Shown piece by piece: positions 3,818 through 44,151 of a DNA stretch of 44,540 nt (position 1 is its first letter; each line of letters begins with the position of its first letter). Origin of the DNA: a virus. The stretch lies in IMG/VR virus record IMGVR_UViG_3300045988_177818, positions 1 to 44,540 of that record; one strand, written 5' to 3'. The translations under genes were made by a program, and so were the position numbers. Under the pieces are notes generated by a model. That model worked only from the letters and a program-made list of their open reading frames with translations. It was not told where the DNA came from and made no database searches.

Positions 3818-3845
3818 CCTACTCGATCTGTGAAGATAGAGTAGG
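3818..3845 (+). ncRNA. GNRA(GUGA)-capped hairpin, copy 1 of a conserved motif
   Basis: cctactc-ga-tct-GTGA-aga-ta-gagtagg. The core cgRtctgtgaagatag is shared with 44126-44141. Confidence 0.5.
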
Positions 3846-3852
3846 CGAACAT

Positions 3853-3951
3853 GGAGAAGTGGCGGACGCACGAAGAGTACTGGAACTTTACCCAGCCGGA
3901 AGGGTTACTCAAATCAGAAAGTTCGTCCCGGTTCGAGTCCGGGCTTTTCCA
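3853..3951 (+). tRNA. Degenerate tRNA-like gene with a Leu(CAA)-type anticodon-loop candidate
   Basis: 7-bp acceptor ggagaag/cttttcc and U8. Canonical T arm cccgg-ttcgagt-ccggg. CUCAAAU at 3908-3914. The D loop is missing, and there are about 25 extra nt 5' of the loop. Confidence 0.4.
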
Positions 3952-3970
3952 CAAACTAAAATTATAAACT

Positions 3971-43979: not shown

Positions 43980-44083
43980 TGCGACGTGGCGGAATGGTAG
44001 ACGTAGCACTCTATGATAGGAATGTCAAACCTTAGATGTGTGGAGCTTGACAACTCGTCCCGGTTCGAGTCCGGGTGTCGCAA
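43980..44083 (+). tRNA. Oversized type-II tRNA-Leu-like gene with anticodon-loop candidate CUUAGAU (UAG)
   Basis: Acceptor tgcgacg/tgtcgca, U8, Leu-type D arm gcg-gaatggtaga-cgt. 16-nt variable arm at 44043-58. T arm cccgg-ttcgagt-ccggg. About 19 extra nt lie before the loop at 44031-37. Confidence 0.55.
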
Positions 44084-44120
44084 CATATTCATCACAGATG
44101 AAGTGTTTGTTTAGTCGTAG

Positions 44121-44151
44121 CCGGGCGGTCTGTGAAGATAGTCCGGTTTTT
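44121..44151 (+). terminator. GNRA(GUGA)-capped hairpin, copy 2, followed by T5
   Basis: ccggg-c-gg-tct-GTGA-aga-ta-g-tccgg followed by ttttt. The core is identical to 3824-3839 except for one compensated pair. Confidence 0.5.

What the first reader, a model, noticed from the sequence alone, without database searches (positions are those of the whole stretch)
43980..44083. Oversized type-II tRNA-Leu-like gene with about 19 extra nt 5' of a canonical-looking CUUAGAU loop
The acceptor, U8, Leu-type D arm (GCG-GAAUGGUAGA-CGU), 16-nt variable arm and T arm all fit a class II tRNA. CUUAGAU (44031-37, anticodon UAG) directly abuts a 3' stem strand, gtgtg. The matching 5' strand (cac-c, 44007-11) is separated from the loop by about 19 nt (44012-30). 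Those 19 nt can instead extend the helix as tcta/taga plus agg/cct. A near-duplicate heptamer, CUAUGAU, sits at 44011-17. The total length is 104 nt.
Basis: partly seen in the sequence, partly recalled or inferred. Interest (0 to 1): 0.62.

Follow-up and report, generated by a model that had tools for sequence, protein, structure and literature searches.

The report
Leucine-tRNA-shaped phage RNA, remodelled anticodon arm
A temperate human-gut (Bacteroides-type) phage carries a strongly conserved gene for an RNA that keeps the body of a leucine tRNA but has a fixed 19-21-base insert covering its anticodon, so it most likely does not read codons and uses the tRNA shape for another, still unknown, job.

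Summary
Window 43980-44083 is a 104-nt class II tRNA-Leu body (acceptor, U8, Leu-type D arm, variable arm, canonical T arm, A73) with 26 nt instead of 7 between the anticodon-stem strands.

ARAGORN finds it only in intron mode. Rfam's tRNA model passes its threshold (32.3 vs 29 bits) only when the element is searched alone, and it treats 24 nt as an insertion.

The gene sits in a roughly 200-nt island that is about 98-99% conserved (leader hairpin, RNA, trailer, terminator). Its flanks differ far more (mean minor-allele fraction 0.2-0.3 per column) across 87 related gut-phage loci.

Among about 110 alleles none has canonical length. The same frame instead carries five interchangeable cores (A, A', B, C, S).

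One SNP at 44041 flips the scanner's call from Leu(UAG) to His(AUG), and allele A' gives 'Pyl(CUA)'. No single excision therefore gives a consistent canonical tRNA.

The insert pairs with the anticodon (UCUA/UAGA). Its loop is also complementary to the variable loop (UGUCAA/UUGACA).

- **Best reading (about 0.55):** an unspliced, non-decoding tRNA-Leu mimic.
- **Main rival (about 0.2):** an 'enigmatic' phage tRNA intron, as reported in Lak megaphages.

This scan already reported the same element on another genome (e1-3496959).

The parts
43926..43951 (+). Candidate promoter region with a T-rich '-7-like' box, TAGCTTTT, at 43932-43939. This assignment is inferred, not shown.
   Evidence: The upstream gene is on the opposite strand (43336-43815), so the RNA needs its own promoter. 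The block TCATGATAGCTTTTTAATGTAAACAG, or a close variant, is kept in most relatives. No exact Bacteroides TAnnTTTG box lies here, and no sigma-70-type site was found here.
43952..43979 (+). Leader hairpin UCCCG-U-CCA-CGUGC-UGG-U-CGGGA (43952-43974) plus the spacer AACAC, ending at the predicted RNase P site.
   Evidence: It is read from the sequence. It is nearly invariant in 64 distinct relatives and is shared by alleles A, A', B, C and S.
43980..44005 (+). 5' half of the tRNA frame: acceptor strand UGCGACG, U8, G9, Leu-type D arm GCG-GAAUGGUAGA-CGU, and A26.
   Evidence: Rfam RF00005 aligns it. Covariation of the acceptor and D stems was counted. The D-arm word is diagnostic of tRNA-Leu.
44006..44009 (+). 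5' strand of the anticodon-stem equivalent (GCAC; U44010 is position 31 in the Rfam register).
   Evidence: It pairs with 44038-44041. The alleles seen are GCAC/GUGC, GCAC/GUGU, GCAU/GUGU and the doubly compensatory AUAC/GUAU. Two rare alleles carry mismatches.
44010..44030 (+). The fixed insert. UCUA (44010-13) can pair with UAGA (44033-36), so the codon-like CUA faces the anticodon UAG. Then come the UGAU bulge, AGG (44018-20) and the 9-nt loop AAUGUCAAA (44021-29). C44030 starts the CCU strand.
   Evidence: It is invariant in about 95 type A/A' contigs except at 44023 (U/G), 44026 (C/U) and 44030 (C/U). The pairing probability of UAGA with UCUA is 0.72-0.98.
44031..44037 (+). Canonical-looking heptamer CUUAGAU (the former anticodon loop of a tRNA-Leu(UAG)). 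It is predicted to be paired, not open.
   Evidence: It is invariant in all type A/A' alleles. It is in register with a 5-bp stem only in alleles with U at 44041.
44038..44041 (+). 3' strand of the anticodon-stem equivalent: GUGU here, GUGC in 40 contigs.
   Evidence: Rfam takes U44037-U44041 as positions 39-43.
44042..44058 (+). Variable arm G-GAG-CUUGACAA-CUC-GU. Its loop UUGACA (44047-52) is complementary to the insert loop UGUCAA (44023-28).
   Evidence: This 6-bp match is the longest Watson-Crick complementarity in the whole core module. The shuffle probability is 0.002 for the two loops alone and 0.04 for the whole segments.
44059..44083 (+). T arm CCCGG-UUCGAGU-CCGGG, acceptor 3' strand UGUCGCA and discriminator A73. 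No CCA is encoded.
44084..44151 (+). Trailer with a small hairpin (UUCAUC-ACA-GAUGAA, 44088-44102), then a terminator-like hairpin CCGGGCGGUCU-GUGA-AGAUAGUCCGG (44121-44146) followed by U5 (44147-44151).
   Evidence: Both are read from the sequence and conserved in relatives. The consensus scan missed the terminator hairpin because it has one G.A mismatch. The core UCUGUGAAGAUAG recurs at 3827-3839.
3853..3952 (+). Paralogue 1: a Leu-type frame carrying the 'S' core. In this window it has an 8-nt D-loop deletion.
   Evidence: ARAGORN -i reports it. It was compared with L135-L139. It shares the T arm with 43980-44083.
41747..41857 (+). Paralogue 2: a class I tRNA-like gene with 43 nt between its anticodon-stem strands.
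   Evidence: ARAGORN -i reports it. It is present in 75 related loci with inserts of 34, 42 or 43 nt.

Best explanation
This is a functional phage gene for a tRNA-shaped RNA that does not decode. It descends from a class II tRNA-Leu, probably a tRNA-Leu(UAG), and keeps everything that makes an RNA look like a tRNA to the cell.

**What is retained**
- a 7-bp acceptor stem
- U8
- a Leu-type D arm with G18 and G19
- a canonical T arm (UUCGAGU)
- the A73 discriminator

**What is changed**
- A fixed 19-21-nt insert remodels the anticodon arm.
- The insert's UCUA, which contains the cognate codon CUA, pairs with U34-A35-G36-A37 of the former anticodon loop.
- The remainder forms a small hairpin. Its 9-nt loop (UGUCAA) probably kisses the 8-nt variable loop (UUGACA).
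- Together these would lock the lower half of the molecule into a compact domain.

**Inferred life cycle**
1. Transcription as its own short unit of about 200 nt, from a promoter near 43930 to the hairpin-U5 terminator at 44121-44151.
2. Removal of the leader by RNase P.
3. 3' trimming and CCA addition.
4. Possibly leucylation, because in E. coli LeuRS recognises A73 and the tRNA core, not the anticodon (established knowledge).

It cannot present an anticodon to the ribosome. I infer that it works by occupying a host factor that binds tRNA. That factor could be a tRNA-targeting defence nuclease, a synthetase or a modification enzyme.

The interchangeable cores at this locus (A, A', B, C, S) would be alternative specificities displayed on one tRNA scaffold.

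**Shown versus inferred.** Shown: the anatomy, the conservation, the allelic core exchange, the lack of any canonical-length allele, and the unstable anticodon calls. Inferred: transcription, processing, charging, the kissing loop and the decoy role.
For: 1. **The tRNA body is real.** RF00005 scores 32.3 bits against a cut-off of 29 over the full model. In the acceptor and D stems 98.7% of cells are paired, 7 pairs change on both sides, and 0 of 500 shuffles do as well. The D/T word pattern at canonical spacing hits only tRNA-Leu genes, 24 of 24.
2. **Selection acts on the whole unit.** Positions 43953-44151 have a mean minor-allele fraction of 0.00-0.03 in most segments (up to 0.14 in the 4-nt 3' stem strand), against 0.21-0.32 in both flanks, in 64 distinct sequences.
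3. **The insert is part of the conserved product.** It is invariant except at three positions, and the heptamer is invariant, while the stems vary.
4. **No allele of canonical length exists.** There were no hits with the D/T pattern carrying this acceptor. There were none with the leader-to-trailer frame in IMG/VR. There were none in 241 million metagenome records.
5. **The same frame at the same locus carries other cores.** The counts are A 88, B 10, A' 7, S 4 and C 1. By my inspection of their sequences, B and C offer no U33-type heptamer next to the stem.
6. **No excision gives a consistent tRNA.** ARAGORN -i calls Leu(tag), His(atg) or Pyl(cta) for near-identical alleles, and the switch depends on one SNP at 44041. 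Allele A' has 2 extra nt in the arm.
7. **The anticodon is predicted to be paired.** The pairing probability is 0.72-0.98 in the window and majority alleles.
8. **Loop-loop complementarity.** UGUCAA/UUGACA has p = 0.002 to 0.04. The S core has an analogous match, GAACUUU/AAAGUUC, with p = 0.003.
9. **No decoding demand.** CUA is the rarest Leu codon in the phage (7%), all three stop codons are used, and there are no canonical tRNAs in 1.0 Mb of related phage DNA.
10. **No splicing enzymes seen.** No RNA ligase or endonuclease family was found among the 30 ORFs scanned.
Against: - No RNA-level evidence could be obtained.
- The extension helices UCUA/UAGA and AGG/CCU never vary, apart from one G-C to G.U change. 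Covariation therefore neither supports nor refutes them.
- RNAfold gives a different inner hairpin (UGAUA/UGUCA with a GGAA loop) and a different fold for allele A'.
- Folding energy is no better than that of shuffled sequence (z = -0.06).
- Two contigs carry G44049A, which breaks the centre of the proposed kissing helix without compensation.
- Cores B and C show no analogous complementarity.
- CUUAGAU is a perfect Leu(UAG) loop on a Leu body, and the insert pairs with the anticodon. Both are also what an intron-bearing pre-tRNA looks like.
- All relatives are close, so part of the conservation reflects recent common descent or horizontal spread of the cassette.
- The decoy function is pure inference.
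Confidence: 0.55

Rival explanations
1. It is an intron-bearing pre-tRNA-Leu. The 19-21-nt insert would be excised by an unknown host or phage pathway, and the exons would be ligated. The product would be a working tRNA-Leu(UAG), like the 'enigmatic', highly conserved tRNA introns reported in Lak megaphages of Prevotella.
For: - ARAGORN -i builds a tRNA-Leu(tag) with a 19-nt intron for the window allele.
- CUUAGAU is a canonical Y32-U33-NNN-R37 loop. Its anticodon matches the Leu identity of the body and it is invariant.
- The insert contains the cognate codon CUA paired to the anticodon. This resembles the anticodon-intron helix of eukaryal and archaeal pre-tRNAs (established knowledge).
- Paralogue 41747-41857 shows the same layout, with CCGG facing anticodon CCG plus G37.
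- There is published precedent for conserved inserts in tRNA genes of Bacteroidota phages (PMC6784885).
Against: - No pathway for removing short, non-group-I tRNA introns is known in Bacteria (established knowledge).
- No RNA ligase or endonuclease family was found among the 30 ORFs scanned.
- The bulges flanking the 4-bp helix are 4 nt and 1 nt, not the 3 + 3 of a bulge-helix-bulge motif. Cutting at those bulges would leave anticodon AUG on a Leu body.
- In the 40 contigs with 44041 C, the Leu(UAG) product would have only a 4-bp stem and no position 26.
- Allele A' needs a different excision length.
- Unlike in Lak phages, no insert-less allele exists.
- Alleles B and C at the same locus have no usable anticodon loop.
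- CUA is the phage's rarest Leu codon.
Confidence: 0.2
2. It is a disabled tRNA-Leu pseudogene with no function of its own. It would persist because the cassette spread recently among related phages by recombination, or because the DNA serves another purpose such as a promoter-terminator insulator or a recombination hotspot.
For: - Paralogue 3853-3952 in this very window has lost 8 nt of its D loop relative to its relatives.
- One contig (L101) has deleted most of the gene.
- Rare alleles carry stem mismatches: UCAC/GUGC, GCAC/GCGU, G1.A72 and C7.U66.
- All the relatives are closely related phages.
- Folding energy is not better than that of shuffled sequence.
Against: - The island is far more conserved than its flanks: minor-allele fraction 0.00-0.03 in most segments, against 0.21-0.32 in the neighbouring intergenic DNA and coding sequence.
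- Stem changes are overwhelmingly compensatory or wobble.
- The loop and insert residues, which a pseudogene would let drift, are the most invariant part.
- Five different cores are all kept inside an intact frame with the same leader and terminator.
Confidence: 0.1
3. It is a switchable ('caged') decoder. The RNA would not be spliced, but the 4-bp mask could open, or a nuclease could clip it, exposing CUUAGAU. The RNA would then decode only under particular conditions. Alternatively it reads an unusual codon context with its enlarged loop.
For: - The mask helix is only 4 bp and its predicted pairing probability falls to 0.72 in the window allele.
- An alternative local stem, CAAAC/GUGUG, could close CUUAGAU in the window allele (by inspection).
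Against: - That alternative stem has 2 mismatches in the alleles with GUGCG.
- A 20-nt bulge in the anticodon stem is not known to be tolerated in the ribosomal A site (established knowledge).
- The phage uses the standard code with all three stop codons and shows no frame anomalies.
Confidence: 0.05

Closest known systems
Bacterial class II tRNA-Leu (Rfam RF00005), including phage-encoded tRNA-Leu genes
   Same: - 7-bp acceptor stem, U8, and a 3-bp D stem with loop GAAUGGUAGA.
- A long variable arm, T loop UUCGAGU and discriminator A73.
- It passes the RF00005 gathering score when searched alone.
- The identical D/T words occur in 24 genuine phage tRNA-Leu genes.
   Different: - 26 nt instead of 7 nt lie between the anticodon-stem strands.
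- The acceptor starts U1-A72 instead of G1-C72.
- The variable arm has a 3-bp stem with an 8-nt loop.
- No CCA is encoded.
- It is not found by ARAGORN in default mode or by Rfam in whole-window mode.
Lak megaphage tRNAs with 'enigmatic', highly conserved introns (Devoto et al. 2019, PMC6784885)
   Same: - Phages of gut Bacteroidota.
- tRNA genes too long for bacterial scanners, recognised only with intron-aware settings.
- Insert sequences identical across cohorts.
- No splicing mechanism is known.
   Different: - Lak phages are 540-kb lytic megaphages with about 30 ordinary tRNAs, and only a few of those carry inserts.
- In Lak phages, alleles with and without the insert coexist and define the insertion point.
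- Here the phage is a 44.5-kb temperate siphovirus with no ordinary tRNA. No insert-less allele exists, and the same frame carries unrelated cores.
- I did not compare the sequences with the Lak supplement.
Archaeal and eukaryal pre-tRNAs with protein-spliced introns (bulge-helix-bulge motif, anticodon-intron helix)
   Same: - The insert is short.
- It pairs with the anticodon through a 4-bp helix.
- A bulge lies on each strand, in the same relative order.
   Different: - The insert lies 5' of the anticodon rather than at position 37/38.
- The bulges are 4 nt and 1 nt instead of 3 + 3.
- The host is bacterial, and no splicing endonuclease is known or was seen there.
- Cutting at the bulges would give anticodon AUG on a Leu body.
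Phage tRNAs with altered anticodon loops that escape host anticodon nucleases (van den Berg et al. 2023, PMC10264068). I saw only the title and abstract.
   Same: A phage-encoded tRNA-type gene whose anticodon region departs from the host norm. This makes a link to tRNA-targeting defence plausible.
   Different: Those are working decoders with point changes in a 7-nt loop. This RNA has a 26-nt segment, and its anticodon is predicted to be paired.
Non-decoding tRNA-like RNAs: phage T4 stable RNAs C and D, bacterial and mycobacteriophage YrlA Y RNAs, and engineered 'tRNA scaffold' chimeras (Ponchon and Dardel). These comparisons rest on my own knowledge.
   Same: A tRNA-like body is used for processing or stability, or as a protein handle, while the anticodon side carries something else. 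The interchangeable cores in one frame look like a natural version of the engineered tRNA scaffold.
   Different: - No sequence relation was found, and the Rfam YrlA family did not match.
- YrlA is circularly permuted (closed acceptor, open anticodon stem) and is linked to an rsr gene, which is not present here.
- The functions of the T4 RNAs are also unknown.

Membership tests
tRNA (Rfam RF00005; canonical decoding tRNA-Leu) | Score at or above the curated gathering threshold of the tRNA covariance model. | tested here: met
   The score is 32.3 bits against 29 (E = 1.7e-5) over model positions 1-71, with 24 nt treated as an insertion in the anticodon loop. This was obtained only when 141 nt were searched. 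The element was missed in the whole-window gathering run and in the 3-kb E-value run.
tRNA (Rfam RF00005; canonical decoding tRNA-Leu) | Cloverleaf acceptor, D and T helices maintained by compensatory change. | tested here: met
   98.7% of cells are paired. 7 of 15 pairs change on both sides. 0 of 500 shuffles reach the observed values. Slid controls give 26-48% paired. The T stem never varies.
tRNA (Rfam RF00005; canonical decoding tRNA-Leu) | A 7-nt anticodon loop (U33, R37) closed by a 5-bp stem at a fixed distance from the D and T arms. | tested here: not met
   26 nt lie between GCACU and UGUGU. ARAGORN in default mode finds no tRNA. Heptamer CUUAGAU is in register with a 5-bp stem only in alleles with U at 44041. 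The call flips to His(atg) or Pyl(cta) in other alleles.
tRNA (Rfam RF00005; canonical decoding tRNA-Leu) | Leu-type body: D-arm GGCGGAAUGGUAGACG, a long variable arm and A73. | tested here: met
   All 24 viral loci with the same D and T words at canonical spacing are tRNA-Leu genes with anticodons CAA, TAA or GAG. A73 is at 44083.
tRNA (Rfam RF00005; canonical decoding tRNA-Leu) | Aminoacylation and codon reading. | not testable with these tools
   This needs acid-gel Northern analysis, a LeuRS assay or a reporter assay.
Intron-containing tRNA gene (group I self-splicing type) | An intron of roughly 200 nt or more with a group I core (P3-P8), usually in the anticodon loop. | tested here: not met
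   The insert is 19-21 nt. No Rfam intron family matched.
Intron-containing tRNA gene (protein-spliced, bulge-helix-bulge type) | Two 3-nt bulges on opposite strands separated by a 4-bp helix, with a splicing endonuclease and ligase available. | tested here: not met
   The helix UCUA/UAGA is 4 bp, but the bulges are UGAU (4 nt) and U (1 nt) by inspection. No endonuclease or ligase family was found among the 30 ORFs scanned. The host genome was not available.
Intron-containing tRNA gene (any type) | Mature RNA that lacks the insert. | not testable with these tools
Lak-type 'enigmatic' phage tRNA introns (PMC6784885) | Presence/absence polymorphism of the insert in otherwise identical tRNA genes. 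| tested here: not met
   No canonical-length allele turned up in IMG/VR or in JGI metagenome contigs. Alleles differ by whole-core replacement instead.
YrlA / bacterial Y RNA, and tmRNA | A match to the family model. For YrlA, also a permuted tRNA-like domain next to rsr. For tmRNA, also a tag reading frame. | tested here: not met
   No Rfam match other than tRNA was found. ARAGORN found no tmRNA. The topology is a normal, non-permuted cloverleaf.

The most novel reading that the evidence does not exclude
Temperate Bacteroides-type gut phages may maintain a modular system of tRNA-Leu-scaffolded RNAs. One conserved tRNA frame, with its own leader hairpin and terminator, would display interchangeable cores in place of the anticodon arm (A, A', B, C, S). 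Several of those cores appear pseudoknotted or kissing. The RNAs would be processed, and perhaps leucylated, like tRNAs. They would act as specific decoys or inhibitors of host tRNA-binding proteins such as defence nucleases. Core swapping would then be the trace of an arms race.
Probability: 0.3. Interest if true: 0.75.

Novelty: new variant of a known kind. Interest (0 to 1): 0.52.

Why it matters
Phage tRNA genes are usually explained by codon supply or by escape from anticodon nucleases. This gene has a complete tRNA body but an anticodon that is structurally buried. It is conserved well above its surroundings, and it sits in a phage that has no ordinary tRNA at all. That combination points to a use of the tRNA shape outside decoding.

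If the RNA is made and not spliced, it would be a natural 'tRNA scaffold' with exchangeable cargo in abundant human-gut phages. It would also be a tractable entry point to whatever host factor it binds.

If it is spliced instead, it would reveal a pathway for removing short tRNA introns in Bacteria that has not been described. Either outcome is testable with one Northern blot or one tRNA-seq experiment.

Practically, it also shows that standard annotation misses these genes. ARAGORN in default mode and Rfam in whole-genome mode both failed to report it.

Tried and rejected
- **RNA evidence:** Splicing, ends and expression could not be examined.
- **Insert-less allele:** I looked for one that would define an excision point. 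None was found in IMG/VR with two independent patterns or in metagenome contigs.
- **Host or prophage copies:** the insert pattern and the frame pattern both gave 0 hits in 185,579 species genomes. 'Relatives' cannot be drawn for a virus record, so the host tRNA-Leu(UAG) could not be compared.
- **Antisense target in the phage:** apart from the insert's own site, the phage holds no complementarity of 10 nt or more. The 9-mer matches are below the shuffle expectation. An sRNA acting on the phage's own mRNAs is therefore not supported.
- **Known RNA family for the cores:** there was no significant Rfam match for type A or for the 187-nt type B allele. The best hit was AdoCbl-II with E = 2.1, which I take as chance.
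- **Tandem duplication as the origin of the two similar heptamers:** only 7 of 20 positions match at the 20-nt period, so I rejected it (inspection).
- **K-turn or box C/D reading of AUGAUAGG:** the sequence does not fit the consensus, so I rejected it (inspection).
- **Anticodon at the tip of the extended arm** (AUGUCAA, which would give GUC): the U33 equivalent is G in allele A', so I rejected it.
- **Suppressor reading** (anticodon UUA or CUA after alternative excisions): the phage uses TAA, TGA and TAG as stops and has long open frames in the standard code, so I rejected it.
- **RNAalifold on the 22 type A/A' alleles:** it gave a non-cloverleaf consensus with no covarying pair because the variation is too low. 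It was uninformative.
- **Linkage of core type to the downstream gene variant:** none was seen.
- **Promoter consensus scans:** there is no exact Bacteroides -7 box and no convincing sigma-70 site upstream. The promoter assignment stays an inference.
Full report
**1. The observation**

The window is a complete 44,540-bp virus record with terminal repeats. It encodes portal, terminase, major head protein, integrase, helicase and a replication initiator. The nearest isolates by terminase are Bacteroides phages, at about 37% identity.

- acceptor UGCGACG/UGUCGCA, with a G7.U66 wobble
- U8 and G9
- D arm GCG-GAAUGGUAGA-CGU
- A26
- GCAC(U) at 44006-10
- the two similar heptamers CUAUGAU (44011-17) and CUUAGAU (44031-37)
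- GUGUG (44038-42)
- variable arm GAG-CUUGACAA-CUC
- T arm CCCGG-UUCGAGU-CCGGG
- A73

ARAGORN in default mode finds no tRNA anywhere in the window. With introns allowed it finds three.

Rfam found nothing in the whole window or in a 3-kb slice. When only 141 nt were searched, the tRNA model RF00005 matched 43980-44083 end to end at 32.3 bits (threshold 29). It placed GCACU/UGUGU as the anticodon stem and 24 nt as an insertion. The whole-genome filters had simply dropped it.

**2. The body is a leucine tRNA body**

I scanned IMG/VR for the D-arm word GGAATGGTAGACG followed by CCGGTTCGA.
- At canonical spacing the scan gave 24 loci, and ARAGORN calls all 24 ordinary tRNA-Leu.
- At 16-46 nt longer spacing the same words hit only this phage group, in 88 loci.

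I then counted pairs across 21 distinct frames taken from alleles and paralogues.
- The acceptor, D and T helices are paired in 98.7% of cells.
- 7 pairs change on both sides. Examples are UGCGACA/UGUCGCA against GGAGAAG/CUUUUCC and GGAUAAG/CUUAUCC, and D stems GCG/CGC against GUG/CAC and GCA/UGC.
- No shuffle out of 500 does as well, and slid controls fall to 26-48% paired.

**3. Conservation and alleles**

The 3' frame word finds 103 viral stretches. The insert word finds 94, nearly the same set.

In 64 distinct sequences spanning 200 nt upstream to 300 nt downstream, the block from the leader hairpin (43952) to the U-tract after the terminator-like hairpin (44151) has a mean minor-allele fraction of 0.00-0.03 in most segments. 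The D arm (0.06) and the 4-nt 3' stem strand (0.14) are higher. The intergenic DNA upstream and the coding sequence downstream reach 0.32 and 0.21. The RNA unit is therefore a conserved island.

Within type A the insert and the heptamer are the least variable part. The only changes are at 44023 (U/G), 44026 (C/U) and 44030 (C/U).

The stem around the insert does vary:
- GCAC/GUGC (40 contigs)
- GCAC/GUGU (the window allele; 39 contigs)
- GCAU/GUGU
- the doubly compensatory AUAC/GUAU of allele A', which also has two extra nucleotides
- two rare mismatch alleles

The same locus, with the same leader, frame, trailer and terminator, carries other cores:
- a 187-nt allele B with a core of about 120 nt
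- a 133-nt allele C (GenBank MT836332)
- allele S, whose core is that of this window's paralogue at 3853-3952
- one deletion allele

The counts are A 88, B 10, A' 7, S 4 and C 1. Core type is not linked to the variant of the downstream gene.

No allele of canonical tRNA length exists:
- none in IMG/VR with either pattern
- none in the metagenome contigs
- the N{60,90} scan found only three more S alleles

Neither the insert nor the frame occurs in the 185,579 species genomes.

**4. Intron or not?**

Points in favour of an intron:
- CUUAGAU is a textbook anticodon loop, and UAG is a Leu anticodon on a Leu body.
- The insert carries UCUA, which is the cognate codon CUA plus one nucleotide, and this pairs with U34-A37.
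- The same arrangement (CCGG facing CCG plus G37) is seen in paralogue 41747-41857.
- Lak megaphages of Prevotella have tRNA genes with 'enigmatic', highly conserved introns (PMC6784885).

Points against an intron:
1. The register ARAGORN needs for Leu(UAG) exists only when 44041 is U. With C there, ARAGORN calls His(atg) with a 19-nt intron after position 38. For allele A' it calls Pyl(cta) with a 21-nt intron.
2. In the register supported by homology, by Rfam and by covariation, U44037 is position 39. The possible 7-nt loops after a single excision then have anticodons UUA, AUA or AUG, none of which suits a Leu tRNA in a standard-code phage.
3. The helix-bulge layout has bulges of 4 nt and 1 nt, not 3 + 3. 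Cutting there yields AUG.
4. By my inspection of their sequences, cores B and C offer no U33-type heptamer next to the stem.
5. Unlike in Lak phages, there is no presence/absence polymorphism of the insert.
6. No RNA ligase or endonuclease family turned up among 30 ORFs.
7. CUA is the phage's rarest Leu codon (7%), and 1.0 Mb of related phage DNA has no ordinary tRNA at all.

The intron reading therefore stays open at about 0.2.

**5. Structure of the remodelled arm**

RNAfold draws the cloverleaf with a long anticodon-side arm. U34-A37 pair with UCUA at probability 0.72-0.98 in the window and majority alleles.

The inner part is ambiguous, and the overall energy is no better than that of shuffled sequence (z = -0.06). 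The two candidates for the inner part are:
- the minimum-energy UGAUA/UGUCA with a GGAA loop

The extension pairs never vary, so covariation is silent on them.

A new point concerns the longest Watson-Crick complementarity in the whole core module.
- It is not any nested helix. It is UGUCAA (44023-28, in the insert loop) against UUGACA (44047-52, in the variable loop).
- The shuffle probability is 0.002 for the two loops alone and 0.04 for the whole segments.
- The unrelated S core has the same kind of match between its hairpin and the variable region, GAACUUU/AAAGUUC (p = 0.003).
- A one-off core (D), found once among the related loci, has UGAUAG/CUAUCA (p = 0.15).
- Cores B and C do not show this.

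Polymorphisms give a mixed picture:
- Two C-to-U changes opposite G keep a wobble.
- U44023G loses a terminal pair.
- G44049A, in 2 contigs, breaks the centre of the helix.

I treat an intramolecular kissing loop between the insert hairpin and the variable arm as a reasonable but unproven model. If it is right, it makes the insert part of a folded domain, not a spacer.

**6. Transcription unit**

- The upstream gene is on the other strand, so the RNA needs its own start.
- A conserved T-rich block, TCATGATAGCTTTTTAATGTAAACAG, precedes the leader hairpin. It does not match the exact Bacteroides TAnnTTTG box.
- Downstream lie a small trailer hairpin and then CCGGGCGGUCU-GUGA-AGAUAGUCCGG followed by U5 (44121-44151).
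- The consensus scan missed that hairpin because of one G.A mismatch.
- Its core UCUGUGAAGAUAG recurs just upstream of paralogue 3853-3952.

**7. Comparison with what is known, and novelty**

The RNA passes the sequence-and-structure test for 'tRNA'. It fails the feature that defines a decoder, which is a 7-nt loop on a 5-bp stem. It is not a group I or bulge-helix-bulge intron case by the features I could test. It matches no other Rfam family.

The nearest published phenomenon is the Lak 'enigmatic intron'. The nearest functional analogues are non-decoding tRNA-like RNAs (T4 RNAs C and D, YrlA) and the engineered tRNA scaffold.

This scan had already reported the same element on another genome as a non-decoding tRNA-shaped RNA (e1-3496959). 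It had also reported the sister element at 41747 in this genome (e1-3494817). My independent tests agree with both and add the following:
- the allele series at one locus
- the absence of any canonical-length allele in three collections
- the SNP-dependent flip of the scanner's anticodon call
- the Rfam hit that whole-genome runs miss
- the loop-loop complementarity

**Verdict.** This is a real, selected, tRNA-Leu-derived RNA gene. Most likely it is an unspliced tRNA mimic (about 0.55). Its function is unknown, and the decoy idea is inference only. One RNA experiment would settle the main question.

Noticed in passing
window 3853-3952 (compare L135:9063-9087 region, L137, L138, L139): The paralogous tRNA-like gene with the 'S' core has lost 8 nt of its D loop in this phage. 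The window reads GGCGGACGCACG where relatives read GGCGGAATGGCAGACGCACG. This copy is probably defective, while the relatives keep a full Leu-type D arm.
   Followed up: partly
L026:3800-3986 (also L023, L033, L034, L047, L060, L063, L096, L097, L102): Allele B at the same locus is a 187-nt RNA. The tRNA-Leu frame encloses a core of about 120 nt. The core contains several 6-7-bp helices, an ACCU-GCGA-AGGU hairpin with a GNRA loop, and a hairpin-loop-to-downstream match (CUAUAU/AUAUAG). It has no significant Rfam match.
   Followed up: partly
L003:52-360 (GenBank MT836332.1): Allele C is 133 nt. It has the same flanks and frame but an unrelated anticodon-side arm (UUGCC...GGCAA) and a giant variable arm (7-bp stem GCAGGUU/AACUUGC with a 17-nt loop). 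The public record is unannotated.
   Followed up: partly
L136:1560-1700: Upstream of the locus-1 tRNA-like gene, the hairpin loop is inverted relative to other phages (UCUUCACAGA instead of UCUGUGAAGA) while the stem is kept. This may be a loop inversion by recombination within the inverted repeat. It could also hint that the hairpin matters as DNA or in either orientation.
   Followed up: no
L101 (about 330 nt upstream of its frame match): One contig has a deletion running from inside the upstream membrane-protein gene to the variable arm. Only ...ACAACTCGTCCCGGTTCGAATCCGGGTGTCGCA is left. The gene can therefore be lost, but it rarely is (1 of about 110 contigs).
   Followed up: no
window 3818-3845 and 44121-44146: The same 13-nt hairpin core UCUGUGAAGAUAG occurs exactly twice in the genome. 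One copy is 8 nt upstream of the 3853 element. The other is 38 nt downstream of the 43980 element, where a U5 run follows it and it looks like a terminator (1.1 matches expected by chance at up to 2 mismatches).
   Followed up: partly
window 42527-43216: This ORF encodes a long run of GSGYGDG-type repeats at its N-terminus. Its repetitive DNA produced a spurious weak Rfam microRNA hit (MIR7526, 22 bits).
   Followed up: no
window 43980-44083 (method): Rfam's tRNA model passes its gathering score here, but only when a short stretch is searched. The speed filters hide the hit in whole-window runs, so genome-scale annotation will miss this class of gene.
   Followed up: yes
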